Source: a virus
Taxonomy: Duplodnaviria > Caudoviricetes
IMG/VR virus record: IMGVR_UViG_3300047469_000103
Span: 32,001-96,000 of that record
DNA: 64,000 nucleotides
Reading direction: 5' to 3' (one strand)
Shown here piece after piece: positions 31,432 to 64,000 of the stretch. Positions within the stretch are counted from its first letter, which is position 1, and every line of letters starts with the position of its first letter. Below the pieces are notes generated by a model. The model was not told the DNA's origin. It saw only the letters and a program-made list of their open reading frames with translations, and did not search any database. The position numbers were made by a program, and so were the translations under genes.

Positions 31432-34400
31432 ATGGCAACATACGTTAAGTTAAGCGGCACGGCGATGGCCTTGAATACCTATCCATCAGAAGGTTCGATT
31501 GCGAACCTCACGGATGGTAACAAGACAACGCTTTGGCACAGCTACGACGCGAACGAAAGTGCAAACAATACCTTCATGGGTATGACGTTTTCGACCGGAC
31601 AAATTCCTCGCAAAATTGAAATTGATTTTGCACGCTGGGGTTCCAAAATTGTAATCGGTTATGCGCCTGCAAAGCCGGGAGCATGGTCGGGTTTTACGGT
31701 TGTTCGTACCATTGACACAAACGCGCAGCCGCTCGATGATGCGGGTGTTGCGTGGGGTGGCGACCGTTTAGGTAAAAGAACAAACACAATTCTTTTAAAC
31801 AATTCCGTGGCCGCGAAGTGCTGGGGTATTTGCAGCACTGACAATTTGTATGGCCCGCTTTCTGACACCAACGCCGGTAATAACACGCGACTAACTGTTT
31901 ATGAAGTTGCGATGTATTCGGATAGTCAATTCACCGCGCCTTCGCAACCACTCGCATCGACTACGCCCCTTACCGGTACAGCTTTTTGCGATAAAAATAC
32001 TTGGTGGTCTTCAAACAACCCCGGCTATGCACCGTCAAAAATGATCGACGGCGTGCTGGATGGTTTGCGCTGGATTGGTGCTGCACTCGATGTAACCGCA
32101 TCGCTGCAAAACTTTGCGGGTATTAAATTCACCGGCCTTCAAGATATTGTTGATGTGCAGGTGCATATCGCATCGTGGGGTAAAAGTTTTAAAATTGGTA
32201 CATGGGCAAACGGCACTGATCCTGCTGGCGCCTCGTTTACAAAAGCGCAAATTATTCCGCTGAAATCCTACGACTCGACCGTGCATACGGACGACGACGG
32301 TCTGGCAATCGGCATTGAAAAATGGTTGCGTTTTTCTGTACCAACGAATCAAATTCCCGGCGTTCTTTTTTATTGCGATGATAACAGCGCTAACCCGCTG
32401 TCGAACAACGCAGGGGCAGCCAACTCAAACGAAAGTCTTAACGAAATAAAGATTTTCGGTAAAGTTGTAACTGTTTCGGATGGCATTAACCCGAAGCCGC
32501 CTACGTCAGTTCCGACTGTACCGTACACCGCTGCACCGCCCATAGGTTGGACAAAAACCGCGTTTTCTACAGCAGGCAATTTCACGTTTACTCCGGCTGC
32601 TGATACGACAATGCTTTTGGCCGTTGCAATGGGTGCTGGTTCGGGCGGTCGCGTATTTACAAACCTCGACGGTTCTCCGACATTAAATAACACTACGCTT
32701 TTTGGTGGCGATACAATTCTCACCGGGCCAAATGGTGTTCTGTTAAATGCCGGTGGTGGTAAAGGTCAAGTCGCGGGTTTGGCAAATGCAAAACCTTCGG
32801 ATATTTTCGAAAACTGGTGGCGCTACATTGACCACGGCTCGACTGTCGGCACATTAAGTTCTGCGGGAATTGCTACATCAGCAGCAGGCCGTGCCGCTCC
32901 ATTTGGCTCTACTGCTCCGCCGTCTTTCACGTTGGCGATTGCACAAACGAACAATCCGTTAACTGCGCTAACCACAAACTTTAACAACAACAACGCGGTT
33001 CCAATTACGCCGTCTGTTTCCACGAATTTTTCGCGAAATGCTTCTTACGGGTGGACAAGTACAAACACTGATCCAAACTCGAAAGCAATCCTGACGTTCA
33101 ACTTCAAAGGTTATATCGGTCAGCGTATTACTTTCAGTGCTTACAAATACAGTACGGAATCGACAACGTTTATTCTGTATTTGAATGGCGTGGCAGTCTA
33201 CAACGTCAACGGTGGCGGCAGCGGCCCTTACGATATGCCGGTAACATTAACGGCGGAAGGCGATCAAGTATTTACGTTTGAATTTACGCGCAGTGCAGGC
33301 TTGCCTTCGGTTCAAGGATTTGTCGGCATTTACCGAATTGCCTTGGACAACATCGGTTACGCTCCGACACTCGGCGGCGCAACTGGTCGCGCACAATCTG
33401 CGTTTCTTCCAGTTCTTCCAGTTTCTTTCACCGTTGGTAAAGGTGGTATTGGTCAACCCGGTGGGCAGAACGTAACGGCTGCGCAAAATGGTACAGGCGG
33501 TTCCGGTGCAGCAGCAGGCGGTAATGGTGGTGACGGTTTTGTTTACTTTTACGAATACAAAGGGAACGTGTTATTCGAAAAACCAAACGAACCTCTTACG
33601 TTCGCGAAAGTAAACGTTTCGACTGCGGAATTGCCGGGTTTGTATCGCTCAGATTATAAAGGGCGAGCGGTGCTTTCTCCGGGGTTCGATACCTTCATTC
33701 ACAATCTGCGACCACGCACGAAAAACGTACTTGTTTTAATGGTCGGCGCTGGTGGTGTGGTTGGTCTTGCTGCTGACCATCCATTTTCACAACAACCGCC
33801 AACAACCGTAAAACACGATATTAATACGTGGATAACCACAAGCGGTCAAAGTGGCGGGCAGTACGCAAACACCGGTAAAAGTTTAGGTGGTGTTTATACT
33901 TCACCTACCGATACTCTGTACGCCAAGAATGGTGATAGCAGCGGCTACAGTTACGACGATACTGCGCTATCTTCGTTTTTCGACGGCTCAGGTAATGGTG
34001 CGCGATCTTATGCGTACAATTACGGTGGTGGTGCTGGCGCGCTAATTCTGTTTTCGCTAAGCGTCGATCCGACCGATGATCGTTCGCTTGAACTGCAAAT
34101 TGCAAACGTATATGGTTCCAACACGCCACAACCCGGTGCTGTGACTATTTTCGAAACCGAAACGGATTTCGGCCCGTATATTTCGCAGCTTGTGGAATCG
34201 CTGCTGATTAAAAACAGCTACGGCGACACGTCCATTACGCAATCGGCACAACAGGTTCTGTTGAAAAACGGTTTGATTGGCAGCAACACTTCGCAAACTA
34301 CGGAAATGTTGTTGGTAAAAGAAAGCGATGTGAACGATCTGCAAGTTTCCTACATGAACGTCGCGTTCCTGTACGAAGCCACCGATCCGAATACCGCAGT

Positions 34401-36132
34401 CTCGCAAACCGCCGAACAAGTTCTGCTTAAATCGGGCATAGAAAATACGCTCGTTACGCAAATGCCAGAAATGGTATTTATGAAGTCTGACAAACTTCCG
34501 ATTCGTTTCACGCAAGCAGCAGAAATGCTCTTTGTTGCGGAACTGCCATCGGTGCTTTGGTTGAACTTCGGCACGTTGGAATATCCGGTTAAAAACCAGT
34601 TGTACACTTCCAGCACGGGCCGCGCAACATCGGTAAAACCCGGCGCTTATATTCAGTTGGAAGGGAATTTTGCACCGGGCACCACGATGTTCCGCAATGG
34701 TGTTGATGTTGGTTTGAGTACGCCGATTGCAAACAACGATCAAATCTATGTTTACGGTGGCGTGACGAATTACTATCAGACATTTATTAACGCTTATGTC
34801 TACTACACGACCAACGGGGAAATCACGCGGGAGCAAGCCGGTACGTGGAAAGTATTGCAGCCGATTTTGACTGCGGTTAAACCACGCAGCTATGCGGCTT
34901 ACACAGCGTTTTCTTGGCTGCGACACACGCACGGATTTGCAACGTCGAGTCTGATTCCACAAGCGGTTAAAGCAAATAGCATTTACGGTGCCTTCGTAGA
35001 TTATCTGGCGCAGAAAGTTAGCTACGCTGCATCGAGTCTGACTTCCGAGTTTGTTAAAGCGGCTGTCTCGACATTCGAAAGCTACACTGAAGCATTGATG
35101 CAAAAGGCGAATAGCCGGATTGCTGAAGTAACACTGGTGCCGGAATTCACGAAAAACAATTCGTTAATTGCTGAAGTCACTGTCGATTGGGAAGCGGTAA
35201 AAACCAAAGACGCTTACGTGACTGTTGGTTATGACGACGCGCCAAAAGCGCACATTGTTTACACCGATGTTGTTGGCTATTCCGAAACAAAAGCAGGCTA
35301 TGGGACTTACATTGTTTCTGATGCGGGTTTCGATTTGATTCAAACGGGTGATGGTTTCTACATCATTCAAGAATCGGATATTGCGAAGGCTGGCTATGCG
35401 GATTACATTATCGAAGAATCAGACATTGCAAAAGCTGGCTACGGAAAAGTCGATCAGATATTCGAACACTTTTATCGCGATCATGCGTATTTCTCCGAAG
35501 TTGTTTACACTGCCATTTCTAGTTCGGGCGCAACGGGTGTATTCCCGATGGGTTGGTTTGGAACCATTGCCTATTCGGTTCTGACTAGCACGAATTATCA
35601 AATCGGTGTGACAATTGGCACGGGCCATTGGTTAATGCCAACGGGTGATGCGTTGTATGCGAAAGCTGGTTTCGGTTTTGCAAATATGCCGCTTCCAGAC
35701 AAAGCAATTGCGCACAGTGAATTGTACGGCGTAGGCGTTGAAAAACATGGCGCTCACGACAACGGGTATTTCAGCACTTACGGAATCACTCATAAAATCG
35801 GTATTGCAACATTCCAAAGCGGTACAGCTTATTCCGGCGTTCATTCGGATACGGCTTCTGCTTCGAATACACCGATTAAAACAATTCACAAATCTTCAAC
35901 CGCTTCTTTGACGCCTTACCGTTATGCGCAATCTGCAAACGGACGTGGGGCAGCATCGCTGTATATGGGTTTCGATACGAAACAAGACGCTCTGGATTTC
36001 ACGCAGAACTTCTACGGCGTAACGACAATTGCCATGTATAACGGTTTTGTTTACAACCTCGAAATAGATAAATCTTTTGTTTGTGAGATTTATTACAACG
36101 GCCCGGTTTCTGGTCTGATTCAAGGTGGTTAA
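31432..36132 (+). CDS. long tail fibre/adhesin with two discoidin-like and Gly-rich domains
   Basis: IANLTDGNKTTLWHS and APSKMIDG F5/8C-like starts; GGNGGDGFV Gly-rich motif; Q(T/S)AEQVLLK repeats. Confidence 0.7.
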   Translation: MATYVKLSGTAMALNTYPSEGSIANLTDGNKTTLWHSYDANESANNTFMGMTFSTGQIPRKIEIDFARWGSKIVIGYAPAKPGAWSGFTVVRTIDTNAQPLDDAGVAWGGDRLGKRTNTILLNNSVAAKCWGICSTDNLYGPLSDTNAGNNTRLTVYEVAMYSDSQFTAPSQPLASTTPLTGTAFCDKNTWWSSNNPGYAPSKMIDGVLDGLRWIGAALDVTASLQNFAGIKFTGLQDIVDVQVHIASWGKSFKIGTWANGTDPAGASFTKAQIIPLKSYDSTVHTDDDGLAIGIEKWLRFSVPTNQIPGVLFYCDDNSANPLSNNAGAANSNESLNEIKIFGKVVTVSDGINPKPPTSVPTVPYTAAPPIGWTKTAFSTAGNFTFTPAADTTMLLAVAMGAGSGGRVFTNLDGSPTLNNTTLFGGDTILTGPNGVLLNAGGGKGQVAGLANAKPSDIFENWWRYIDHGSTVGTLSSAGIATSAAGRAAPFGSTAPPSFTLAIAQTNNPLTALTTNFNNNNAVPITPSVSTNFSRNASYGWTSTNTDPNSKAILTFNFKGYIGQRITFSAYKYSTESTTFILYLNGVAVYNVNGGGSGPYDMPVTLTAEGDQVFTFEFTRSAGLPSVQGFVGIYRIALDNIGYAPTLGGATGRAQSAFLPVLPVSFTVGKGGIGQPGGQNVTAAQNGTGGSGAAAGGNGGDGFVYFYEYKGNVLFEKPNEPLTFAKVNVSTAELPGLYRSDYKGRAVLSPGFDTFIHNLRPRTKNVLVLMVGAGGVVGLAADHPFSQQPPTTVKHDINTWITTSGQSGGQYANTGKSLGGVYTSPTDTLYAKNGDSSGYSYDDTALSSFFDGSGNGARSYAYNYGGGAGALILFSLSVDPTDDRSLELQIANVYGSNTPQPGAVTIFETETDFGPYISQLVESLLIKNSYGDTSITQSAQQVLLKNGLIGSNTSQTTEMLLVKESDVNDLQVSYMNVAFLYEATDPNTAVSQTAEQVLLKSGIENTLVTQMPEMVFMKSDKLPIRFTQAAEMLFVAELPSVLWLNFGTLEYPVKNQLYTSSTGRATSVKPGAYIQLEGNFAPGTTMFRNGVDVGLSTPIANNDQIYVYGGVTNYYQTFINAYVYYTTNGEITREQAGTWKVLQPILTAVKPRSYAAYTAFSWLRHTHGFATSSLIPQAVKANSIYGAFVDYLAQKVSYAASSLTSEFVKAAVSTFESYTEALMQKANSRIAEVTLVPEFTKNNSLIAEVTVDWEAVKTKDAYVTVGYDDAPKAHIVYTDVVGYSETKAGYGTYIVSDAGFDLIQTGDGFYIIQESDIAKAGYADYIIEESDIAKAGYGKVDQIFEHFYRDHAYFSEVVYTAISSSGATGVFPMGWFGTIAYSVLTSTNYQIGVTIGTGHWLMPTGDALYAKAGFGFANMPLPDKAIAHSELYGVGVEKHGAHDNGYFSTYGITHKIGIATFQSGTAYSGVHSDTASASNTPIKTIHKSSTASLTPYRYAQSANGRGAASLYMGFDTKQDALDFTQNFYGVTTIAMYNGFVYNLEIDKSFVCEIYYNGPVSGLIQGG

Positions 36133-52213: not shown

Positions 52214-52222
52214 TTCCGAAGC

Positions 52223-52270
52223 AAAAAAAGCCCCGTTTCCGTAATTGGATTCGGGGCTTTTTTCGTTTCA
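52223..52270. terminator. bidirectional terminator, copy 2 of a conserved element
   Basis: A7-GCCCCG-TT-TCC-GTAATT-GGA-TT-CGGGGC-T6 between convergent genes. Confidence 0.85.
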
Positions 52271-54382: not shown

Positions 54383-55050
54383 TCGTCGTCACCACGTCCG
54401 TAACGAGGCAGCATAATTCCGTCCTCTACATCAGCGCCCATGATGAATTTGTAAAACGCAGCAGACGGCGGCACACCGAGGCGAATGTAATGGGCGAGTC
54501 CGTCAGGCCATTTCCAGCCCTTGTATTCGAATTCGGAACAACCCAAATTTTCATTCGTCAAACGGCAGTAACTGTAACCGCGATACTTGACTTCTTTTGC
54601 AAGGTCTTCAGTGTCCACGAGTTTTTCGATGAATGCTTGCACGTTGAAACCCGCAATTTCCATCGGCACCGGCCACGGACAATCAGCGTCTTGCATGTTC
54701 GAATAATGCCGAACGTTTGCACCGGGCAATTCGTCTTTCGGCGGAATCACTTCGAAGCGGCGCCAGTAGCCTTCGATACGAAACGGGAACTTACTGTGTT
54801 GATTTACAGTATGGAATTTATGGAACGCGGCGTGTGCAATCTGATCCAGAATTCCACGACTGATTTTCGGTGCGTCGTCAATGCGGATGAAAATTTGCGT
54901 TTGATATTCGCTTGTGGACTGGTCGTTACTGTTGCCCGTAAACATCAGGGTAGTGCCGCTGATTTCCACCATGCACGGCTCTGCATCATTCACATCGCTG
55001 TACATCCAGTAATAGCCGTTAGTCAAACGATCCCACGTGAAAACGTTCAT
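54379..55050 (-). CDS. YW-family domain fused to a YRGYSYCR/WPDGLAHY domain
   Basis: NGYYWMY...PCMVEI...IFIRIDDAP N-terminus. Confidence 0.75.
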   Translation of the reverse strand: MNVFTWDRLTNGYYWMYSDVNDAEPCMVEISGTTLMFTGNSNDQSTSEYQTQIFIRIDDAPKISRGILDQIAHAAFHKFHTVNQHSKFPFRIEGYWRRFEVIPPKDELPGANVRHYSNMQDADCPWPVPMEIAGFNVQAFIEKLVDTEDLAKEVKYRGYSYCRLTNENLGCSEFEYKGWKWPDGLAHYIRLGVPPSAAFYKFIMGADVEDGIMLPRYGRGDDE

Positions 55051-55052
55051 GA

Positions 55053-55478
55053 TTATTCCTCGAAGTAGAGCAAGTCTTTTGGCACACGCGGCGCTTCGGC
55101 AACCGGGTAAAAGACGTGAGTATTTTCACGGAAACGAATTAACTCAGGATCGTTCATGGCGATGCACGTGTAAATCGTTTCGTCTTTGGTGTTGCGCACG
55201 ACAATTTCAATAATGTCGCGCTCCGTGGCGTCCGCCCGGTCAATCATCCAGTACATAATGCCGACTTCCAGATTGCGCCAGTCAGTAATAAATTCTGGTT
55301 CTTTCGGTTCTGGAAAATCAGCCCAGTATGGATACGCCTGCGGAATACTGGTAACGTGATCTACACTAACCGCCGTCCAATGCTTTTTGTTGATTTCGTA
55401 AGCCAAGACATTATGAACTGCCTTGTCACGCTCAGGCGGATTAACGCGGGTGGTGTATACTTCCAATTCCAACTTCAT
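55053..55478 (-). CDS. DUF551-like domain fused to a YW-family domain
   Basis: YPYWADFPEP, then VGIMYWMI...IIEI...VFYPVAEAP. Confidence 0.7.
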   Translation of the reverse strand: MKLELEVYTTRVNPPERDKAVHNVLAYEINKKHWTAVSVDHVTSIPQAYPYWADFPEPKEPEFITDWRNLEVGIMYWMIDRADATERDIIEIVVRNTKDETIYTCIAMNDPELIRFRENTHVFYPVAEAPRVPKDLLYFEE

Positions 55479-55804
55479 AGCTGGCCCTTAATAAGTTTCA
55501 TGACCGTTAGGCCGTGGCACTGTTTCGGAAAGCAATGACAAAGTAATCGAATTGATTCCCCTGCACTGTAGCGTTTCCGTAGCGCGTGAATTCGTTTAGC
55601 GAAGGGGCCGTTTTTCAACATTCGCGCCTTCGCCAGTTTCTCGTATTTCGCACAGACTTCCGCACGTGTGCCGTCTTTCCCAATATGATATTTGTTTCCA
55701 AAAATCGTATCGCGATTAATCAGCACATCGACATAGCCAAGCATCGGGCCGTCACTAACGCGGCCTAACGTGACCGAACCTGTGCGTGCAAACATGCCCG
55801 CCAT
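55475..55804 (-). CDS. DUF4326-family protein
   Basis: INRDTIFGNKYHIGKDGTRAEV...LLCHCFPKQCHG. Confidence 0.85.
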   Translation of the reverse strand: MAGMFARTGSVTLGRVSDGPMLGYVDVLINRDTIFGNKYHIGKDGTRAEVCAKYEKLAKARMLKNGPFAKRIHALRKRYSAGESIRLLCHCFPKQCHGLTVMKLIKGQL

Positions 55805-56493
55805 TATGCTGTGAAAAATTCAACAAATGTACGGCGTTCGGTTTCAAACATGTTTTCATAGAACGGCAGTGTCGGCATTGGCTCTGCGTGTTTGTAGATT
55901 GCCAGCCTGCGCACAAATGTGGTGGTCAAACGATTCTGCATCAACGCTTGCAACACTTCGTCTTCGGAAATCAGCTTGTTATTAACGACTTCGAAAACGT
56001 AAATGTCTTTCGCAACTTTCCAGTCACCGAACCAGTTTTCCAGATTGTCTACCCATCCGCTTTCATGCGTACCGAAAGTAATGCCGACTTGCTGGCGATT
56101 ATTCGTTTCGATATCTGCCAGAATGATTTGCGTACCCGGCAGACGAATGTGTATGTGAGGCAACTGGTCATCGCTCACCGGGAAATATTCAACCGGCATG
56201 CGGATTTTTTCTTTGATGTAGGCCATCACGCTAGTGAGTTTGTCTTCCGCTGCTTCGTATTCAATCAGCGACAAAACATGCGCTTCTTTTACGCGCTCGA
56301 AATAGGCGTCGAAGGTTTCGATTTCGTCAGGGAATGTGAAGGCGCCGGGAGTGCCGATGTACAGCGCGTTATCCGGGTAAAGTTGTACGTTCATTTCACG
56401 CTTATCAAACGCAATCGTGTTGTCTTTCGGGCAAACTTCAGATTTCGTTTGCATCAGATTTTCGACGTTAACGATAAACTCTTCGCGATTCAT
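55804..56493 (-). CDS. hypothetical protein
   Basis: GGAG RBS; MNREEF start coupled by ATGA. Confidence 0.75.
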   Translation of the reverse strand: MNREEFIVNVENLMQTKSEVCPKDNTIAFDKREMNVQLYPDNALYIGTPGAFTFPDEIETFDAYFERVKEAHVLSLIEYEAAEDKLTSVMAYIKEKIRMPVEYFPVSDDQLPHIHIRLPGTQIILADIETNNRQQVGITFGTHESGWVDNLENWFGDWKVAKDIYVFEVVNNKLISEDEVLQALMQNRLTTTFVRRLAIYKHAEPMPTLPFYENMFETERRTFVEFFTA

Positions 56494-57164
56494 GCTGGTT
56501 CTCCACACGGGAATTTCGGACTGTACACGTGACCACGTTTCGGATGGCGTTCGGTTCCGTCGCTAATAAAATAGGCGCCGGGTGTACGGAAAATTTCAAT
56601 ACCGTGACGGGAACCATCGCGCATAATTCGCACAATATCTTTCATTTCACCTTCTGGTAAATCAGCCAGTCGGGTGATGGTTTTCGTGCCGCGTTCCGGG
56701 TGCGCAAACTGCACACCAGTACGGCGAATTTCAAACAGGCGCGGGCCACCGTTGTACAGGTAGCATTCGATAACCGGATTCGGCATATCGAGCAATTCAA
56801 CGTATTGCACGTAGGCTTCACGAACCTGTTCAATCATGAATTTGTGCGTGCGCAAAATCTCGCACGTCTTTTTGTGCCAAAGGATTTGGCGACGAATCAT
56901 AAACGCTAGCGTGTCATATACCCGGCTGTAGTCACCACTAATGGGCCACAGTTCCATCTTTGCACCGGGCGCATTATATTTCACTGTGCGAATTACACCG
57001 GCTTTTTCCGGGGCGTAAATCCCATCATCCAGCATCAGCACCAGCGAACCGCGTGCGTTTACAATGTACTCGCTTCCGAGGTGTTCTTCTCCGTGAGTGT
57101 TTTCACGGAATTGCGAAGCGCCCATCATCTGCAAGCATACGACTTTGAAATGATCTTGATTCAT
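56490..57164 (-). CDS. hypothetical protein
   Basis: ORF in the operon. Confidence 0.75.
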   Translation of the reverse strand: MNQDHFKVVCLQMMGASQFRENTHGEEHLGSEYIVNARGSLVLMLDDGIYAPEKAGVIRTVKYNAPGAKMELWPISGDYSRVYDTLAFMIRRQILWHKKTCEILRTHKFMIEQVREAYVQYVELLDMPNPVIECYLYNGGPRLFEIRRTGVQFAHPERGTKTITRLADLPEGEMKDIVRIMRDGSRHGIEIFRTPGAYFISDGTERHPKRGHVYSPKFPCGEPA

Positions 57165-57186
57165 GCCAAATCCTTTGTGTAGGTCT

Positions 57187-57672
57187 TTACTTTTTCTTTT
57201 TCACAATCGAGCCGATAGTCGATTTCTTCAACTTCGGCAATTCTTTAATTGCGTCCAACAACTTGTGATGCTCGCGGCTCAGCTTGTCACGAGCTTCCGG
57301 CAGCGTAAACCATTTACGTTTGCGCAGCTTCTTTTCGTCCCAATGATCCAGCGCAACATGGAACTGCATCGCGTACATCTTTACGATTTGTTTCATGCCG
57401 TCTTTCTTGTATTCAAACGTACCGATTTTCTTTGTAACGGTGCCGGTGATACCTGCCTCTTCGAAGCATTCTTTTGCCGCGTTAGCGCGTGCGTCCAAAT
57501 GCTTTTCCTGCCCGCCTTTGGTGAAACCCCACCATGCGCCTTTCTTCAGTTTTTTCACCAACAGAACTTGTCGCACGCCGTCAACGTCGCGGTATGGAAT
57601 ACAGCCAGACTGCAAGCGTACTTCTTTCGGCTTTTCTTTCTTCGATTTAGCAACAGCAATTTCAATATCCAC
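57187..57672 (-). CDS. Nudix hydrolase (DIPP/Ap6A-like subfamily)
   Basis: QSGCIPYR...QVLLV...WGFTKGGQE...AAKECFEEAGI; GTG start at 57672 with GAGG RBS (alternative ATG 57720). Confidence 0.88.
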   Translation of the reverse strand: MDIEIAVAKSKKEKPKEVRLQSGCIPYRDVDGVRQVLLVKKLKKGAWWGFTKGGQEKHLDARANAAKECFEEAGITGTVTKKIGTFEYKKDGMKQIVKMYAMQFHVALDHWDEKKLRKRKWFTLPEARDKLSREHHKLLDAIKELPKLKKSTIGSIVKKKK

Positions 57673-57721
57673 GGAAACCTCAACAGTATGTGAGTGTGGG
57701 AAAGGCGCTTCCCACTCCATT

Positions 57722-57730
57722 TTAAATTAC
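57722..57730 (-). promoter_or_regulatory. putative late-promoter motif GTAATTTAA upstream of the Nudix gene
   Basis: Exact 9-mer match on the minus strand in the intergenic gap. Confidence 0.5.
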
Positions 57731-57745
57731 CACTCACATACATAT

Positions 57746-58564
57746 TTACAGTTCTACGATCAGCACCTTATGCGTAACGTTTTCATTCATGAACGGGAAC
57801 AGTTGCGCCGCAAGGTCGGTGCCGTCTTCAACAGCCGTTGTTTTAAGCACAATTTCCGAATGTTGTACGCTGATTGCATTGCGCATGCGGCCAAAGAAAC
57901 GAGCGCCGTATTTTGCAGGAATAACCAACTGCATTTTGCTTTCGTCCATCACACCGTACACGCCGTTTTCGTCGTCGAGGTCACGCAAGAACCACGAGGC
58001 CAAAACGTCTTCGAATTGCTCTGGCGTTTTAACCATTCGCTCTTCGTAACGCATTGCTTCCATGTGCGGGAAAACCGATATCGCGCCCATTGCTGCAATG
58101 TGAAACTTTTTACGCGGTTCTTTTATCGGGCCGCAGTGCATGCAACTGAAACGGAAACCCGCAACCATGTTCGCGTCAACCTGTTCGGCATCCTTGATAT
58201 AGAAACGCAGGATGTGTTGGGTTTCGTCGATTTCGATTGTCGAGGTAAACGGTGCGTACTGGAAATACGCTTTGAACTTTTCCACTTCTTCGGCAGTGCG
58301 TGCGTGGAAGGATTGCATGTCCGCGTGCAGCCGATTTGCATGGATCATTACTTCTGCAAATTCCGGTTCTTCGTCTGCGCGATATTCGTCGATGTACGAA
58401 TCAATCCAGAAATAAGTTTCGCCAAACGTCAGCAGCAAACCATTCCACTCGTAAAACAATGCGTCGGGGCTTGGCCCTCTGCGCATCAGGCCGTCGTTTG
58501 GATCGCATGGAGTAGCGCCCATCAGTGCCAGAACTTCTAACGCTTTACTCAATGCTTCACTCAT
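57746..58564 (-). CDS. hypothetical protein
   Basis: Start MSEALSK overlaps the upstream stop. Confidence 0.75.
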   Translation of the reverse strand: MSEALSKALEVLALMGATPCDPNDGLMRRGPSPDALFYEWNGLLLTFGETYFWIDSYIDEYRADEEPEFAEVMIHANRLHADMQSFHARTAEEVEKFKAYFQYAPFTSTIEIDETQHILRFYIKDAEQVDANMVAGFRFSCMHCGPIKEPRKKFHIAAMGAISVFPHMEAMRYEERMVKTPEQFEDVLASWFLRDLDDENGVYGVMDESKMQLVIPAKYGARFFGRMRNAISVQHSEIVLKTTAVEDGTDLAAQLFPFMNENVTHKVLIVEL

Positions 58565-59453
58565 TGGAAATATCCAGTTTAGGGCGAGCTTTTTTCGCTT
58601 CGTATTCACGCGATGGTTTCTTTTCACGCGGTTTGAAAAACGGCAGCCGGTCGATGAATTTAATTGTCGAAAGCGTCACCTCGTAACTGTCGTCAGGAAT
58701 CAACGCATTCACAAGCTGACTATCCGATTTCCGATGTGTCATTACTTCGATAGTTTCGAGTTTATCCACGCCGTAGGTGAACATCCAATGCAACCACTGG
58801 CCCGGTTCGCCTAGCGTGCTGATTTGGTCATTACCCTGTGCAGGCATTTTCGGATCGAATGCTTTTTCTGCCCACGCAGCAACGTCGTTACCGTTTTCTA
58901 CCCATGCGAAAAATTCGTCTTCTTCGTCTTCAACATCGTCGTAAAGCAAATGATCGCCAGCCATGCGAACATAAAACTTATTGTGTTCGGCATCATATTG
59001 CAGACGGAACAGAACGTGTTCCCAACCGCGAAGCGTGAATGTCACCGTGCGATTCTGCGTTTTCGATGGCTTGTATTCCACTGGCACGCGGCGTTCGTCA
59101 CAGTACGCTTTGATTTCTTCACAGAGACGATTACGACGGGTTAAAAGCTTGTCGTTTTTCTCTGCTTCTTTCGCCGCGATATTGCGAATGTCGATTTCAG
59201 TTGTAGCAGAAGCCGGGATGTTTAGGATTTGCCGCGCAGCAAATTGATTACGCAGATTGACCGTGTACATTTTGCCGCTATCACCCTGCTTGGCAACAGC
59301 GCCACGCAGCGGACGATGTGGCAAATGATTCGCGGGAAGAAAACGCACGATAACGCCATTCAGACTGAAGGAACGGCTATCGCCATTATCGGTGAAACCA
59401 AACGTCAACAATTGCATCGACAGAACGTCGCGAAACTCTTGATTAATTCGCAC
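58557..59453 (-). CDS. hypothetical protein
   Basis: GTG 59453 after GGAG (alternative ATG 59417). Confidence 0.7.
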   Translation of the reverse strand: MRINQEFRDVLSMQLLTFGFTDNGDSRSFSLNGVIVRFLPANHLPHRPLRGAVAKQGDSGKMYTVNLRNQFAARQILNIPASATTEIDIRNIAAKEAEKNDKLLTRRNRLCEEIKAYCDERRVPVEYKPSKTQNRTVTFTLRGWEHVLFRLQYDAEHNKFYVRMAGDHLLYDDVEDEEDEFFAWVENGNDVAAWAEKAFDPKMPAQGNDQISTLGEPGQWLHWMFTYGVDKLETIEVMTHRKSDSQLVNALIPDDSYEVTLSTIKFIDRLPFFKPREKKPSREYEAKKARPKLDISNE

Positions 59454-59775
59454 GTTGGAATTTCTCCGTAATGGTGTAGGACATGCCGCGTTCGCAGCGC
59501 GCAAAAGCTTCTTCGTCTTTCTTGCCACGGGATTTAATGCCGAGCGATTCAGACTCGCCGTGACAGCGCACAATCAATTCGCCGCTGCCGCCTTTGTCGA
59601 GGTTGCAAAAACCTGCACCAACACATTCGATAAAACGGTGATCGGATTCCATCAGCGCACGCCAGCCACATTCCTTCATTTCTTTGTGGATCAGCACATA
59701 CGGAAACATGATTGGCAATTCGTGAGTGTTGCCGTGTTCGTCTTCCGATTTCAAAACAACGTATTTCATCAACAT
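59443..59775 (-). CDS. CHGxSESL-family small protein
   Basis: MKYVV...FP...H...VGAGF...CHGESESLGIKSRG..DE. Confidence 0.75.
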   Translation of the reverse strand: MLMKYVVLKSEDEHGNTHELPIMFPYVLIHKEMKECGWRALMESDHRFIECVGAGFCNLDKGGSGELIVRCHGESESLGIKSRGKKDEEAFARCERGMSYTITEKFQRAN

Positions 59776-59776
59776 G

Positions 59777-60103
59777 TTATTGTCCTGTTGTGTCGGTGAA
59801 AATAACCGCGCTGTCGATATTCTTGATCCAGACTTCAGCCAAGCGAATATGTTCGCCTTGATCGTCCCGATGCGACAGGTACTCGCGGTATTGACGCAGA
59901 CGCCGCTCAGCACGCATTTTCAAATAGGCGCGGGCTTCAGCTTCGGTGTCAAAACAAACGGTGGTGTAATCTTCGTCATCGTCATCGTCGGAATCAACTT
60001 CGAAGTTTTCCCACACCGTAGAAAATACTTGTGGGTAATATTTGCCACCCGCCAGCATGAGGCGATACGGCAGAATGTTTTCGTTAAAATCAGACGCGTT
60101 CAT
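59777..60103 (-). CDS. hypothetical protein
   Basis: ORF abutting its neighbours. Confidence 0.7.
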   Translation of the reverse strand: MNASDFNENILPYRLMLAGGKYYPQVFSTVWENFEVDSDDDDDEDYTTVCFDTEAEARAYLKMRAERRLRQYREYLSHRDDQGEHIRLAEVWIKNIDSAVIFTDTTGQ

Positions 60104-60415
60104 TTATACGCTTCCTTTGAGTGTGCTGTAGAAATATTGGTTAGAACGCTTGATGATTTCTTCGTCAATTGCGCCCCGGCTATCCAGCTTCAGCGATTCC
60201 GAACGCCCGTGGCAATACGGCTTCCCGTCGAGGCCAATGTCTACAAAACCAGCCGAAACAATTTCGTCCATTTGTATGTGCGTATGGCGACGGAACCGGG
60301 CGAAGTCTGCATGAACAATAATGCCGGGGAACAGGAAAGCGATAGCATGGCGTTCATCCGTCACGCTACCATTCTCGCGTTTATCACCTTCAAAAATAAC
60401 GTACTTGAATTGCAC
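60104..60415 (-). CDS. CHGxSESL-family small protein
   Basis: GGAGG RBS and GTG; FKYVI...FP...H...VSAGF...CHGRSESLKLDSRG..DE. Confidence 0.75.
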   Translation of the reverse strand: MQFKYVIFEGDKRENGSVTDERHAIAFLFPGIIVHADFARFRRHTHIQMDEIVSAGFVDIGLDGKPYCHGRSESLKLDSRGAIDEEIIKRSNQYFYSTLKGSV

Positions 60416-60417
60416 GC

Positions 60418-61773
60418 TTAATCCTCCAGCGGGCCGTCGTGGTAGCCGACAATTTTCATGTGTTCGTAAGTGCTGGTCACAAGGTACGAATCCCACTGAA
60501 TGCGGTCGTCGAAACCATACGATTCGCTGGTGATATTTGCAGCGATCATTTCGCGGTCGATTTCTTCCGGGTCGAGCAAATCGTAACGCTTCAGAATTTC
60601 CCGTGCATGTGCAGCGACAGCTTCTTTCGTCGCGTCAATTGTCACTACAGTTTCCAGTGCTTTCGACAGGCTACCGCGTTGCTCACGGAATTTCATTTTG
60701 CGCGGTGCTTTTGAGAGTTCGCGCTTCGGATAAGTGACGATCATATCCACGAGTTTTTCAATGTGCCCGACCACATTCCCGTCCAGCGGAACCAGATGGA
60801 AATTGCCGCTGCTACCGCTTTGGCTATCCGGGCTTTTCACGAACCAGATGATTTCGTTTTCGTAGAAAGCAATCGAGAAATAATTGTCTGTCTCGGGATT
60901 AACCGCAGGCCAGAAAATACCCGGCACGCCTTCGTGATCCAGCATCGGACGCGCCGCACGAATTTCGTCAATGCGTGGACTGAGTTTCATCAGGCTCAGG
61001 AAAGTTTCGGCGGTTGACAGGTACGCTTTAACTGGTGCGTCTTCACCGTTACCGCCCCAATCAAATTCCAGTTTGTCGTATTCGCCAAAAGCGATTTCAA
61101 CCAAACCGAAACGGGTTTCGTAAGCAGTGAAAATTGCGCGTTCTTTTGCATGCTCTTCGTTCAACACGGCCACCTGTTCGTCGGTGTATTGCGGATCGAG
61201 GCATTCTGCGTCACCGGCTTCCCACTCAGAAGTTTCGTCTTCCATGCTGCCTTGCGGTTCGCCGGTTTCTTTTTCGAATTCTTCAATCTGCGCTTTGGTC
61301 GGATGCGGTACGCCAGCAATAACCATGAAACCACAGCACGGACAATGGTACATGCCGATTGGCGCACCGGTTAACATTTCTGGATGTTCGTAGCATTCGC
61401 CTTCGACGTTCATGTAAATGCGATAAACAAATAACCGCATTTTGTCGTCGCCCAGCGTGCGCATGCTGACGTGATATTTCTCAGGATCGAGATTCAGTTC
61501 ATGAGTCCACGCGCCGATTACTTTCATGCAATCGTCAGCGGTAGCATCACCATTCAATTTGAAAACACACATCAGGGTCGATGGTGCGAAGTCGTCGCCC
61601 TGTACAAAGAAAAACGAACCTTTGTCGTAACGGCACGGAACCAGATTCGCCGGACAGAACATTCGGTCAAGCGTAACGTCCACCGAAGAGCCGTTGAATT
61701 CTGGAAACTTCACGTCGAGAAATTCATCGCGGAAAGTGCCGGGAAAAAGCAGTGTGATTTCTTTGCTGTTCAT
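60418..61773 (-). CDS. mosaic multidomain hypothetical protein with a CxxC module
   Basis: AGGTG RBS; GAPIGMYHCPCCGFMVIAGVPHP; acidic linker; MKFREQRGSL C-terminal module. Confidence 0.75.
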   Translation of the reverse strand: MNSKEITLLFPGTFRDEFLDVKFPEFNGSSVDVTLDRMFCPANLVPCRYDKGSFFFVQGDDFAPSTLMCVFKLNGDATADDCMKVIGAWTHELNLDPEKYHVSMRTLGDDKMRLFVYRIYMNVEGECYEHPEMLTGAPIGMYHCPCCGFMVIAGVPHPTKAQIEEFEKETGEPQGSMEDETSEWEAGDAECLDPQYTDEQVAVLNEEHAKERAIFTAYETRFGLVEIAFGEYDKLEFDWGGNGEDAPVKAYLSTAETFLSLMKLSPRIDEIRAARPMLDHEGVPGIFWPAVNPETDNYFSIAFYENEIIWFVKSPDSQSGSSGNFHLVPLDGNVVGHIEKLVDMIVTYPKRELSKAPRKMKFREQRGSLSKALETVVTIDATKEAVAAHAREILKRYDLLDPEEIDREMIAANITSESYGFDDRIQWDSYLVTSTYEHMKIVGYHDGPLED

Positions 61774-61782
61774 GCTTGTCAC

Positions 61783-62133
61783 CTACAGAGGGATTACACG
61801 AAAAAGGAAATTGCATGCGCGGATTACCAGCGCTGCGCAAATGGAATCTAAAACGAGTTGGTACGGCTCGCATGGATCGTCGTAAATATCCGGCAACGAA
61901 TAATCGCCGTCGTAGTTCGGTTCCAAATACAGCAAGCCTTCCATGCGATTGCGCGGGCTATCCGTCACACATTCATCAGGACGCACGCCGTACAGATTCA
62001 TCAACTGGCGCGCACCGATGTAATGAACCTGACCATCGAATTTGCTAATTACTTCACCCGGACAAATCAGGAAATGTTTTCCGTGATCGGACAGGTACAC
62101 GCAATCTTTACCGAGTGTGGTTTTGTAGTTCAC
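61783..62133 (-). CDS. hypothetical protein
   Basis: GTG start overlapping the Arc-gene stop (GTGA). Confidence 0.6.
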
Positions 62134-62726
62134 AGCGGCTTCAATTCCTTGATGTTCACTTGCGTGTTTTTGTAGCCTTCGTTGCCCTTCAGTCCACGCG
62201 TCAATTCGGCATAAACTTCGCCGTCGTTTTGCACAGTGTAGCGAACCAGAATCCACGCCATTTCACTGAAGCGCACCGGGTCGCCTACGTGTGGGACAAA
62301 CGTCTGCACCTGAAAGAATTCGGTAGGCTTCATTTCAGCCGCCAGACTTTCGAACTGTGCAATCAACGTAGAGAAATCGGTTTTGTTTTCCAACAGCGCC
62401 TCAATTTCTTTTTTCAGCTTCTCGCCGTCAACGCTGTCTTCCAGTTCAACCGCACTCATGAACCACTGACCAGAACGCAAAAGCTTTTTCAGCATTGTTT
62501 CCAGTTCTTTGCAGCGCTGTGCAGCTTTCACGCCATCCACCAGCGTGTTCATGCTTGGAGCATGCCCGGTTTCTTTGTGAGCGGCCAAGCACATTTCGAT
62601 CCACGCTACCATCTGACTGTTCATGCTGCGATGTTGCGTATCAGCAATTTCCTTCACATGATCGCGCATGCCTTCCAGAAGGCGGATAACGAATTTGTCG
62701 GCGGTGCGGCTGCTGTAGGTTTTCAT
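62130..62726 (-). CDS. Arc/ribbon-helix-helix regulator, AmrZ(AlgZ)-like N-terminus with novel C-terminus
   Basis: [42 protein letters not shown]; AGGA RBS. Confidence 0.9.
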
Positions 62727-62770
62727 AAACATCCTAAATATAAATAGTGAATCGCGCAGGAAAGCGGAAC

Positions 62771-63343
62771 TTACTTGCAGAGGTCTTTGTAGCTGACGAT
62801 GGCTGTGTTCTTGCCGCCGTCCATAAAGAAAGTGTAGCTGTCTGCCTTCGGTAAAAACTTACGGAATTTCTCGCCATTCGCAACGAATTCTTTCCGCGTC
62901 TCTTTACCGGTTTCTGTCAGCAGAACTGTCATGGCGTTGCCGTCGATATCGAGTCGGGTTTCTTCGTCGATTTCACTGGCTGGTGTCATGTAGATTTTGT
63001 AACCGAGAACAGTCATGTAACGGTAGCTGTAATTCCGCGTACCGGTCATGGTGCGCTCGCCAACTTTGAAAACACAATTCGAAGTATGCGAACCGTATTT
63101 GTCGTAATCGGTGATGTAATCTTTCCAGAAGAAGTATCCGTACAGTGCAACCATACCCAACAACGAACCGACGACAGCAACTGCAATCGCCCAAAACTGA
63201 ATCCGTTTAGCGAGACGCCGACGTTTCTCAAATTTAGCTGAATCTTCACGATCATTTTTCAAAATCGTTTCCAACTCAGCGTCCAACACTTCGTTAAGTG
63301 CGTGGTCGAGTTCTGCGGCGTTTGGCTGTTGTGGCAAAGTCAT
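62771..63343 (-). CDS. single-pass membrane protein
   Basis: RRRLAKR followed by [28 protein letters not shown]. Confidence 0.75.
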
Positions 63344-63352
63344 GATAATCCC

Positions 63353-63850
63353 TTATTTGTATTTGGCTTGGAAGTAAGCAATTTTCTCGGCATGTTTTTC
63401 AGCGAGCGCTTCGTCTTTGGTGCTGACGATATCTTGCGAGAAAAACACAGTTTCTGTGCAGATGAATGTTTGCCGGTGTGGCTTGCCGTCTGAGAACAAA
63501 AGTTTCAGACAGAGCCGTGTGTAATTAACCAGCATTTTGTAATCCGAAACCACGTACACGTTCGCATCGGTGTGCGGAATGTGATCGAGTAGAATGCACT
63601 TGCTTGTGCCTTCCACGTAGAAGAGTGGGCGCGGCTGCTCAGTAAAAAGATTCTGAGTCAGCCAACGCTGTTTCAAAACCATTATCTTGTTGCGAATTTT
63701 CGAAATGTATTCGACCAATTCCTTATCGCGATCCAGCCCCGCACCTTTGTAGATGCGTTCAAGCGTTTCGTGTGTCTTATACATACGGCCCTGCTGTCTT
63801 GCTAACAGGTCGTGAAGTTCCGGTGCCGTCAACTTAGCTAATGGTTTCAT
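63353..63850 (-). CDS. hypothetical protein
   Basis: ORF with GGGA RBS. Confidence 0.7.
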   Translation of the reverse strand: MKPLAKLTAPELHDLLARQQGRMYKTHETLERIYKGAGLDRDKELVEYISKIRNKIMVLKQRWLTQNLFTEQPRPLFYVEGTSKCILLDHIPHTDANVYVVSDYKMLVNYTRLCLKLLFSDGKPHRQTFICTETVFFSQDIVSTKDEALAEKHAEKIAYFQAKYK

Positions 63851-63855
63851 TGTCC

Positions 63856-63999
63856 CTAAACCTTGCGCCCTAATGTGGTCGTATCTGTGTCGTCAGTAAT
63901 GTACTGATACCCGCCCTTATTGTAGAGCGGTGCAACACGGTTCTTTTTCTTTTGAATTTCAACCTGTGCAGCGGCTTCGCGTTCTTCATAACCTTCGAT
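63856..63999 (-). CDS. 5'-truncated conserved phage hypothetical protein
   Basis: ...KKKNRVAPLYNKGGYQYITDD...GRKV, a motif recalled from T4-like hypotheticals (unverified). Confidence 0.65.
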   Translation of the reverse strand: MEGYEEREAAAQVEIQKKKNRVAPLYNKGGYQYITDDTDTTTLGRKV

Positions 64000-64000
64000 T

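What the first reader, a model, noticed from the sequence alone, without database searches (positions are those of the whole stretch)
62130..62726. Phage-encoded AmrZ mimic with a new C-terminal domain
Seen: [19 protein letters not shown]...HRSMNS. Established: Pseudomonas AmrZ reads [19 protein letters not shown]...HRSMNS, contacts DNA via the K-x-V-x-R ribbon (conserved here) and regulates alginate, Psl, flagella, type IV pili and c-di-GMP. The remaining ~150 aa are unrelated to AmrZ. Inference: it binds AmrZ sites or heterodimerises with AmrZ to reprogram surface receptors or biofilm (superinfection exclusion), and points to a Pseudomonas host.
Basis: partly seen in the sequence, partly recalled or inferred. 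Interest (0 to 1): 0.7.

Follow-up and report, generated by a model that had tools for sequence, protein, structure and literature searches.

The report
Jumbo-phage AmrZ-like regulator, three modules
A giant, probably Pseudomonas-infecting, phage encodes a DNA-binding protein whose head closely copies the host biofilm and motility regulator AmrZ; phages carrying such copies are already published, and the new feature here is an extra uncharacterised module between the head and a small barrel-shaped tail domain.

Summary
A real gene lies on the minus strand at 62130-62732 (200 aa, or 198 aa from the better-placed ATG at 62726). Its first 50 residues are an Arc-type ribbon-helix-helix domain. The only solved relative is AmrZ (3QOQ), at 28/47 identical residues, and all nine published AmrZ DNA-contact and positioning residues are kept. 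The rest of the protein is unrelated to AmrZ's tail.

"Phage AmrZ mimic" is an already published kind:
- Borges et al. 2019 showed that phage homologs (PaBG, phi3, JBD68) repress CRISPR-Cas expression, and that 5 of 6 tested mobile homologs complement an amrZ deletion.
- Gp53 of PhiPA1019 (2026) binds the fleQ, pslA, amrZ and ftsZ promoters.

The C-terminal part is only half new. Its last ~58 residues form an SH3/Tudor/KOW-like barrel that is also present in the PaBG and Gp53-type proteins. Residues ~64-117 are an uncharacterised helix-loop-helix module, which also occurs alone in small phage proteins.

The gene is a syntenic, vertically inherited member of an HRDY3/Lu11-like jumbo-phage clade, not a recent capture from the host. 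Binding to host AmrZ sites, heterodimerisation with AmrZ and superinfection exclusion all remain untested. This scan already reached the same reading for related proteins on other DNA.

Verdict: a new variant of a known kind, of modest interest.

The parts
62130..62732 (-). Whole gene including the stop codon (62130-62132). It encodes 200 aa from the first ATG; the likely true start is the second ATG at 62726, giving 198 aa.
   Evidence: ORF list and translation. An AGGA lies 5 nt upstream of the second ATG (sequence). Homologs begin MK(K/T)YSS.
62583..62723 (-). [quoted passage not shown]
   Evidence: Pfam PF03869, E 3.3e-12. AmrZ 3QOQ, E 9e-13, 28/47 identical. Foldseek's top hits are 3QOQ chains.
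62682..62696 (-). DNA-reading beta-strand K13-F-V15-I-R17, equivalent to AmrZ K18/V20/R22
   Evidence: Alignment. Contact residues taken from PMC3325190. Residue check across the family.
62382..62543 (-). Middle helix-loop-helix module, residues ~64-117. Conserved core residues are L84, G88, W90, S93, A94, E96, G103 and E109. It has no Pfam or PHROG family.
   Evidence: Exhaustive search. Stand-alone small proteins P0039-P0046 carry the same module. No family match. Conservation. Model helices 61-86 and 103-115.
62133..62306 (-). C-terminal SH3/Tudor/KOW-like small beta-barrel, residues ~143-200, with the motif F-x-P-x-x-G-x-P-V ... L-x-P-L
   Evidence: AF2 pLDDT ~84-89. VIA-align: Z 8.3 to the ERCC6-L2 Tudor domain, 7.1 to a NusG KOW domain, 6.3 to CarD. 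Profile match to the Gp53-type barrel: probability 90%, E 1.6e-6.
61783..62134 (-). Downstream gene of about 116 aa (phrog_7644, function unknown). Its GTG start overlaps the regulator's stop codon (GTGA), so the two are probably co-translated in one operon.
   Evidence: Sequence; PHROG hit; a homolog sits in the same position in L003.
60418..61782 (-). Conserved downstream neighbour of 454 aa, function unknown. It follows the regulator gene in all four related loci examined.
   Evidence: tblastn synteny check, 32-53% identity in L001, L003, L004 and L006. PHROGs of unknown function.
62771..63343 (-). Conserved upstream neighbour of 190 aa, function unknown, with one hydrophobic segment
   Evidence: ORF list. 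Homologs upstream of the regulator in L001, L003, L004 and L006, directly adjacent in L003 and L006. No Pfam or PHROG match.

Best explanation
The gene encodes a transcription factor of the published class of mobile (phage-borne) AmrZ homologs.

Shown:
- It has an Arc-type ribbon-helix-helix head that is 60-64% identical to chromosomal AmrZ.
- The head keeps the three base-reading residues (K13, V15, R17 = AmrZ K18, V20, R22).
- It also keeps the N-terminal arm (Y6, S8, R9) and the positioning residues (E20, R23, N38).

Inferred:
- Like AmrZ, it forms an intertwined dimer whose two-stranded sheet enters the major groove and reads GGC half-sites.
- During infection it occupies host AmrZ-type operators and changes host transcription. 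Experimentally tested relatives do this at CRISPR-Cas genes and at the fleQ, psl, amrZ and ftsZ promoters.
- The two non-AmrZ modules (a helix-loop-helix module and a small SH3/Tudor-like barrel) take the place of AmrZ's tetramerisation tail. They most likely supply higher-order assembly or contact with a partner. This is a guess from position and fold only.

The gene is an old, syntenic component of an HRDY3/Lu11-like jumbo-phage clade and sits in an operon of small genes of unknown function.
For: - Head: Pfam Arc above the cut-off. AmrZ is the only solved relative, E 9e-13, and Foldseek's top hits are 3QOQ chains. Identity is 28/47 to a chromosomal AmrZ ortholog.
- Contact residues: all nine AmrZ contact or positioning residues listed in PMC3325190 are identical in this protein. 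Eight of the nine are kept in almost all 14 family members; the ninth, E25, is mostly D.
- Precedent 1: 5 of 6 mobile AmrZ homologs complemented an amrZ deletion, and the PaBG, phi3 and JBD68 homologs lowered Csy (CRISPR) expression (bioRxiv 10.1101/673095).
- Precedent 2: Gp53 of PhiPA1019 binds the fleQ, pslA, amrZ and ftsZ promoters. Its essential residues R15, R21, M35 and N36 correspond to R17, R23, M37 and N38 here, which are invariant in the family.
- Same architecture as tested relatives: the PaBG homolog and the Gp53-type SM1 protein align over their full length, barrel included (E 2e-19). The barrel of this family matches the Gp53-type barrel (hhalign probability 90%, E 1.6e-6). Both models give the same top fold hits.
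- Host-directed rather than phage-directed: the amrZ1-type core GGC-N5-GCC is not enriched in the window (13 found, 13.5 expected) and is absent from the 52-64 kb block that holds the gene. No operator-like repeats were found there.
- Real, inherited gene: full-length homologs lie on contigs of 175-320 kb with the same gene order.
Against: - No experiment exists for this protein or its close family, and its binding sites are unknown.
- AmrZ sites share little consensus (PMC3325190), so the motif scan is a weak test. It also covers only about a fifth of a ~300 kb genome.
- Deep conservation as a syntenic gene fits a core phage function, such as regulation of the phage's own genes, as well as it fits a host-takeover accessory.
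- The second helix carries a family-specific signature (A-W-x-E-M-C instead of A-R-L-E-Q-S). The head is therefore not a plain copy, and its specificity or partners may differ.
No Gp53 sequence could be obtained.
- The profile used for the Gp53-type barrel has only three sequences, one of which (P0015) was itself found with this protein as the query.
Confidence: 0.55

Rival explanations
1. The protein regulates the phage's own genes, as P22 Arc and Mnt do: for example it shuts off an early operon or represses itself. On this view the likeness to AmrZ reflects common ancestry of Pseudomonas-associated Arc domains, not targeting of the host regulon.
For: - The classical role of phage Arc-family proteins (established knowledge; also summarised in PMC13650114).
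- The gene is a syntenic, vertically inherited member of a deep jumbo-phage clade, 35-47% identical between members and similar in divergence to its neighbours.
- It lies inside a tightly packed operon with overlapping start and stop codons.
- Sigma-70-like promoters are depleted around it, 2 found against 9.8 expected, which suggests phage-specific transcription signals.
Against: - No enrichment of GGC-N5-GCC in the window, and none in the 52-64 kb block.
- No repeated operator-like motif in that block.
- The 38-nt gap upstream of the gene leaves no room for an autoregulated promoter.
- Strict retention of all nine AmrZ contact residues, including the N-terminal arm, is most simply explained by a target set defined by the host.
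- The two roles are not mutually exclusive.
Confidence: 0.27
2. The protein acts as a dominant-negative partner. Its head forms mixed dimers with host AmrZ, or its tail disrupts AmrZ tetramers. AmrZ is thereby inactivated or retargeted, without the phage protein acting on DNA by itself.
For: - The intertwined dimer domain is 60-64% identical to AmrZ.
- The AmrZ tail, which is needed for tetramerisation and function (Xu et al. 2016, cited in PMC13650114), is replaced by other modules.
Against: - A pure poison would not need to keep every DNA-contact residue.
- Tested relatives work without host AmrZ; 5 of 6 complement an amrZ deletion.
- Purified Gp53 binds DNA on its own.
- The helix-B residues that pack the dimer core carry a conserved family-specific signature, which argues for self-pairing.
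Confidence: 0.1
3. The protein is a ribbon-helix-helix centromere-binding partition protein (ParG/omega-like) or a type II antitoxin, not a transcription factor that acts on host genes.
For: - Some PHROGs that match the head are labelled 'partition protein ATPase' (phrog_2685, phrog_795).
- There is a weak Pfam ParD_like hit (E 0.015, 15.7 bits).
Against: - The ParD_like score is below its cut-off of 23.
- The PHROG label looks like a carried-over misannotation of Arc-domain proteins; those matches cover only residues 3-86 of this protein.
- None of the eight flanking genes examined matches a ParA-type ATPase, a toxin or any other Pfam family.
- No iterated centromere-like repeats were found nearby.
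Confidence: 0.03

Closest known systems
AmrZ (AlgZ, PA3385) of Pseudomonas aeruginosa, structure 3QOQ, and its chromosomal orthologs
   Same: - An Arc-type ribbon-helix-helix head, 28/47 identical.
- The same base-reading K-x-V-x-R strand, N-terminal arm Y-S-S-R, and positioning residues E, R and N.
   Different: - AmrZ is 106-109 aa, with a short helical tetramerisation tail. This protein is 198-200 aa, and residues 55-200 are unrelated to that tail.
- Helix B carries a different conserved signature.
- The gene is encoded by a phage, not the chromosome, so it is not an AmrZ ortholog.
Mobile AmrZ homologs of Pseudomonas phages and plasmids (Borges et al., bioRxiv 10.1101/673095), especially the homolog from jumbo phage PaBG (PaBG_00302)
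   Same: - A phage-borne AmrZ-like head with conserved DNA-contact residues.
- PaBG is also a jumbo myovirus.
- The PaBG protein also ends in the W/F-x-P-x-x-G ... R-P barrel.
   Different: - The PaBG protein is 138 aa, with only a ~20-residue linker and no middle module.
- Head identity to this protein is only 22/44.
- The direct profile match of the PaBG barrel to this family is weak (E 0.013, partial). The link runs through the Gp53-type proteins.
- CRISPR-Cas repression has been shown for PaBG, phi3 and JBD68, not for this family.
Gp53 of Pseudomonas phage PhiPA1019 (PMC13650114), represented here by its inferred ortholog SM1_0115 of Samunavirus SM1
   Same: - A phage AmrZ-like head followed by an SH3-like barrel.
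- The residues essential for Gp53 (R15, R21, M35, N36) are invariant here as R17, R23, M37 and N38.
- The barrel profiles match with probability 90%.
   Different: - Gp53-type proteins are 126 aa and come from ~94 kb phages.
- They lack the middle module.
- Their N-terminal arm is less AmrZ-like (F-D-T-R instead of Y-S-S-R), and only 17/44 head positions are identical to this protein.
P22 Arc and Mnt repressors
   Same: - The same superfamily and the same beta-sheet mode of DNA reading.
- Mnt likewise joins a ribbon-helix-helix head to a separate C-terminal oligomerisation domain (established knowledge).
   Different: - Sequence similarity is at the level of the Pfam family only.
- Arc and Mnt act on phage operators in a temperate phage.
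- They have no Tudor-like barrel and no AmrZ-type arm.

Membership tests
Arc/MetJ ribbon-helix-helix superfamily (Pfam PF03869 Arc) | The sequence matches the family model above the curated cut-off | tested here: met
   46.5 bits against a cut-off of 20.4, E 3.3e-12, residues 8-48.
Arc/MetJ ribbon-helix-helix superfamily (Pfam PF03869 Arc) | A strand-helix-helix fold that forms an intertwined dimer | tested here: inconclusive
   The monomer model shows the two helices (22-33 and 37-55) but no strand, at pLDDT 65-72. Foldseek's top hits are AmrZ 3QOQ chains, with TM 0.68-0.73 normalised on the target but E only 0.02.
Mobile (phage/plasmid) AmrZ homologs, sensu Borges et al. | Carried by a mobile element of a Pseudomonas host | tested here: met
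   The phage nature is shown by the tail/baseplate gene block and by jumbo-phage relatives HRDY3 and Lu11. The Pseudomonas host is inferred only.
Mobile (phage/plasmid) AmrZ homologs, sensu Borges et al. | Conservation of the AmrZ DNA-contacting residues (K18, V20, R22, plus the arm and positioning residues) | tested here: met
   Y, S, R, K, V, R, E, R and N are all identical to the AmrZ orthologs (residue list from PMC3325190).
Mobile (phage/plasmid) AmrZ homologs, sensu Borges et al. | Activity in the AmrZ network: complementation of an amrZ deletion, or binding to AmrZ operators | not testable with these tools
   Needs EMSA or DAP-seq and a genetic complementation test.
AmrZ orthologs (chromosomal) | The C-terminal tetramerisation tail of AmrZ | tested here: not met
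   hhalign of residues 55-200 (family profile A4) against the tail of an AmrZ ortholog gives probability 0.6%. The phmmer alignment to 3QOQ ends at residue 50.
Gp53/PaBG-type head-plus-barrel phage regulators | A C-terminal small beta-barrel homologous to that of the Gp53-type and PaBG proteins | tested here: met
   - Profile against profile: probability 90%, E 1.6e-6, 58 columns.
- Single SM1 sequence: E 9e-4.
- In-register alignment with invariant P, G, L and P.
- The same top fold hits for both models.
- Caveats: the profile is small, and the second model's alignment included members of this family.
ParG/omega-type partition proteins | A partner ParA-type ATPase gene and a centromere repeat array nearby | tested here: not met
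   None of the eight flanking genes examined matches a ParA-type ATPase or any other Pfam family. No iterated repeats.
Type II antitoxins (ParD-like, PF11903) | A model score above the cut-off and an adjacent toxin gene | tested here: not met
   15.7 bits against a cut-off of 23. No toxin family among the neighbours.
EF-hand (for the middle module) | A significant profile match and acidic calcium ligands at loop positions 1, 3, 5 and 12 | tested here: not met
   The best PDB hit is calsensin, at a non-significant E of 0.075. In that alignment loop position 1 is hydrophobic and position 6 is W rather than G. Only the position-12 E is kept.

The most novel reading that the evidence does not exclude
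The two added modules may turn an AmrZ-type DNA-reading head into an adaptor or a switch. In one version, the Tudor/KOW-like barrel holds host RNA polymerase or another factor at AmrZ operators; the bacterial Tudor-like domains of CarD, Mfd and PcrA bind RNA polymerase in this way. In another version, the conserved helix-loop-helix module makes binding depend on a ligand or a phage partner; this module also circulates as a stand-alone small protein beside phage replication genes. Either version would be a new mechanism for hijacking host operators and would define a new phage protein module.
Probability: 0.12. Interest if true: 0.6.

Novelty: new variant of a known kind. Interest (0 to 1): 0.33.

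Why it matters
Phage copies of the host master regulator AmrZ are an established way for Pseudomonas phages to interfere with host transcription, covering CRISPR-Cas, motility, biofilm and cell-division genes. This locus adds three things:
- A whole clade of ~300 kb jumbo phages has kept such a copy as a fixed, syntenic gene. This argues that the function is important for these phages and not an occasional add-on.
- The small C-terminal barrel, which the published studies do not discuss, is a shared feature of the PaBG, Gp53-type and jumbo-phage proteins. It deserves a functional test.
- An uncharacterised ~55-residue module is inserted in this clade and also occurs alone in other phages.

None of this overturns current understanding. 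It refines an existing class and gives a host clue for an uncultured phage.

Tried and rejected
Oligomerisation of the added modules is therefore untested.
- No whole genome is held for the window. Only 64 kb of the ~300 kb phage could be scanned.
- Pfam and PHROGs found nothing for the middle module or the barrel.
- The ESM Atlas feature search gave no usable hit for the middle module. For the barrel it gave only sub-threshold viral hypothetical clusters, scoring 0.79-0.81.
- The profile of the middle module against PDB sequences gave only a non-significant EF-hand hit, and the calcium-ligand positions are not conserved. The EF-hand reading was rejected.
- The Noxifer protein's C-terminal region gave no profile match to the barrel, and the PaBG barrel gave only a weak partial match.
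- The word-index search for shorter proteins returned only three AmrZ orthologs. The pattern-based genome scan returned only six loci. Neither gives a real taxonomic census.
- The Gp53 sequence and its DAP-seq motif are not in the held text or supplements. The motif could not be scanned, and the equivalence of Gp53 with SM1_0115 rests on genome size and residue numbering.
- No tRNA genes in the window. GC is 47-49%; this neither supports nor excludes a Pseudomonas host, because jumbo phages often differ from their hosts in GC content.
- No second copy of any of the three modules exists in the window.

Full report
**1. The observation**

The minus strand carries an ORF at 62130..62732 that encodes 200 aa. 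The second in-frame ATG, at 62726, has an AGGA five bases upstream, whereas that AGGA abuts the first ATG (sequence).

Pfam Arc (PF03869) matches residues 8-48 at 46.5 bits, against a cut-off of 20.4. The only sequence relative among solved structures is AmrZ bound to its amrZ1 operator (3QOQ), at E 9e-13 with 28 of 47 residues identical. Residues 55-200 show no likeness to the tail of a chromosomal AmrZ ortholog (hhalign probability 0.6%).

**2. What carries the gene**

The window is part of a phage:
- Positions 1-51 kb hold a plus-strand block of baseplate, tail and tail-fibre genes.
- From ~52.3 kb to the end of the window there is a minus-strand block of small genes without known function. 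A bidirectional terminator-like hairpin at 52218-52269 separates the two blocks.
- The protein's cluster record lists a longest contig of 300,331 bp.
- A 1566-aa window protein is 37-38% identical to proteins of Pseudomonas jumbo phages HRDY3 and Lu11, and to nothing else in the phage collection.

No whole genome is held for the window.

**3. The family**

- **Membership.** A word-index search found full-length relatives of 198-222 aa, at 27-73% identity, on contigs of up to 320 kb. The annotated 'Arc-like DNA binding domain protein' of HRDY3 is among them.
- **Synteny.** In four related loci (HRDY3 and metagenomic contigs of 175, 280 and 320 kb), homologs of the upstream neighbours and of the conserved 454-aa downstream gene were found in the same order, where present. 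Their identities are similar to those of the regulator itself. The gene is therefore an old, vertically inherited component of this jumbo-phage clade and not a recent capture from a host.
- **Operon.** The 116-aa gene downstream starts with a GTG that overlaps the regulator's stop codon (GTGA). The gap upstream is only 38 nt. The gene thus sits inside an operon.

**4. Anatomy: three modules**

*(a) Residues 4-50, the AmrZ-type ribbon-helix-helix head.* The AmrZ-DNA structure paper (PMC3325190) describes these features:
- K18, V20 and R22 on the beta-strand read GGC half-sites.
- An N-terminal arm (Y11, S13, R14) becomes ordered on DNA.
- E25, R28 and N43 position these elements.

All nine residues are identical in this protein. 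Eight of them are kept in almost every one of the 14 family members; the ninth, E25, is mostly D. Head identity to chromosomal AmrZ orthologs is 28/44. Helix B carries a family-specific signature, A-W-x-E-M-C, in place of AmrZ's A-R-L-E-Q-S.

*(b) Residues ~64-117, a helix-loop-helix module.* Its conserved core is L84, G88, W90, S93, A94, E96, G103 and E109.
- An exhaustive HMMER search of 1.8 billion representative proteins with residues 52-200 gave only 16 hits. These were family members plus small proteins of 56-131 aa that consist largely of this module.
- Two of those small proteins lie next to phage primase-helicase genes.
- The module has no Pfam or PHROG family.
- Its profile gives only a non-significant EF-hand hit (calsensin, E 0.075), and the calcium-ligand positions are not conserved.
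- Some family members (P0012, P0013, P0045) lack the module and join the head directly to the barrel. It is therefore an insertion.

*(c) Residues ~143-200, a confidently modelled small beta-barrel* (pLDDT 84-89). It has the SH3/Tudor/KOW fold. The best structural match is Z 8.3 to the ERCC6-L2 Tudor domain over 53 residues at 1.9 A, followed by NdhS (7.7), a NusG KOW domain (7.1) and CarD (6.3). This establishes a fold class only, not a function.

**5. Comparison with published work**

Two papers in the library already describe phage AmrZ mimics.

*Borges et al. (bioRxiv 10.1101/673095):*
- They found AmrZ homologs on 14 Pseudomonas phages and plasmids, with 'perfect conservation' of the DNA-contact residues.
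- 5 of 6 tested homologs complemented an amrZ deletion.
- The homologs from jumbo phage PaBG, phi3 and JBD68 lowered expression of the type I-F CRISPR complex.

*PMC13650114 (October 2026):*
- The early protein Gp53 of the 94 kb phage PhiPA1019 is an AmrZ-like ribbon-helix-helix factor.
- It binds the fleQ, pslA, amrZ and ftsZ promoters.
- It represses motility, biofilm formation and cell division.
- It depends on R15, R21, M35 and N36.

The Arc protein of the 93 kb Samunavirus SM1 has exactly these residues at exactly these numbers. I take it as the Gp53 ortholog. This is an inference, because the Gp53 sequence itself is not held. The same four residues are invariant in the present family, as R17, R23, M37 and N38.

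**6. The C-terminal barrel is not unique to this protein**

- The SM1/Gp53-type protein and the PaBG homolog align over their whole length, including a C-terminal W-x-P-x-x-G ... R-P segment (35% identity, E 2e-19).
- A profile of this family's barrel matches the SM1 tail in register (E 9e-4).
- The same profile matches a three-sequence profile of Gp53-type tails at 90% probability (E 1.6e-6, 58 columns).
- A joint alignment has invariant P, G, L and P in the barrel.
- The AF2 model of the Gp53-type protein has the same strand order (pLDDT ~90) and returns the same top fold hits (6hq9, 2xhc, 6a7k).

Two caveats apply. The small profile includes an intermediate sequence that was found with this protein as the query. 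The second model's alignment contained members of this family.

The head-plus-barrel architecture is therefore shared with experimentally tested phage proteins, although neither paper discusses the barrel. What is particular to this clade is the inserted middle module.

**7. Mechanism and rivals**

*Most likely reading (0.55).* The protein dimerises through its head, reads AmrZ-type GGC half-sites, and acts on host AmrZ-regulon promoters during infection. The added modules provide assembly or partner contact in place of AmrZ's tetramerisation tail.

Evidence for a host-directed role:
- The complete retention of AmrZ's contact residues across a deeply diverged family.
- The two experimental precedents.
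- No excess of the amrZ1-type core GGC-N5-GCC in the window (13 found against 13.5 expected), and none in the 52-64 kb block.
- No operator-like repeats in that block.

The motif test is weak: AmrZ sites share little consensus, and only about a fifth of the genome was available.

*Main rival (0.27).* The protein regulates the phage's own genes, as P22 Arc and Mnt do. Its status as a conserved core gene fits this well, and the two roles are not exclusive.

*Dominant-negative pairing with AmrZ (0.10).* This is less likely. A poison would not need intact DNA-contact residues. Tested relatives function without host AmrZ. The dimer-core helix has its own conserved signature.

*Partition protein or antitoxin (0.03).* These readings rest on mislabelled PHROGs and a Pfam hit below the cut-off. 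No partner genes support them.

**8. Host**

- All phage hits to the head at 56% identity or more are Pseudomonas phages, and 48 of 64 hits overall are.
- The bacterial loci recovered are Pseudomonas, Halopseudomonas and Ectopseudomonas. That scan was pattern-limited.
- The nearest phage relatives infect Pseudomonas.
- GC content of 47-49% is uninformative.

A host in the Pseudomonas family is likely (about 0.7) but not shown.

**9. Earlier scan notes**

Earlier notes from this scan show that related proteins in other genomes were flagged and judged in the same way: a jumbo-phage AmrZ-like regulator with added domains, a variant of the known phage AmrZ mimics. My independent checks on this window agree with them.

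**10. Verdict**

This is a new architectural variant and a new clade-wide family within an already published kind, and its interest is modest.

Noticed in passing
window 62382-62543 (-); proteins P0039-P0046; loci L014 4001-4396 and L015 4001-4309: The ~55-residue middle module (core S-G-x-W-F-x-S-A-x-E-L ... V-D-G-E-E-L) also occurs as the main part of stand-alone proteins of 56-131 aa. Two of these lie next to phage primase-helicase (DUF5906) genes. The module is a phage protein module with no Pfam or PHROG family.
   Followed up: partly
loci L017 1174-1590 (PaBG_00302) and L007 1501-1881 (SM1_0115): The experimentally studied phage AmrZ homologs of the PaBG and Gp53 types both end in a small SH3-like barrel. 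The published papers do not discuss it. The two proteins align over their full length at 35% identity (E 2e-19).
   Followed up: yes
proteins P0012 and P0013 (locus L006 5001-5618): Two family members on ~280 kb contigs carry an extra N-terminal extension of ~60 residues before the head, which hits Pfam IF2_N (PF04760). Both lack the middle module.
   Followed up: no
window 52218-52269: A GC-rich hairpin flanked by an A-run and a T-run. It looks like a bidirectional terminator at the junction of the plus-strand structural block and the minus-strand block of small genes.
   Followed up: no
window 55000-64000: Sigma-70-like promoter matches are depleted: 2 found against 9.8 +/- 3.1 in shuffled sequence. 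This hints that the block is not transcribed from host-type promoters.
   Followed up: no
window 60418-61782 (-): This 454-aa protein of unknown function follows the regulator in all four related loci examined. It combines regions that match three different PHROGs of unknown function (34602, 29033, 8785) and contains a C-P-C-C motif. It may be a functional partner of the regulator.
   Followed up: partly
window 31432-36132 (+): A 1566-aa ORF whose only relatives in the phage collection are in Pseudomonas jumbo phages HRDY3 and Lu11, at 37-38% identity. It is a useful marker for this phage clade.
   Followed up: partly
window 29344-31383 (+): A 679-aa protein that matches many tail-fibre and collagen-like tail PHROGs. 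It is a likely receptor-binding fibre and so relevant to identifying the host.
   Followed up: no
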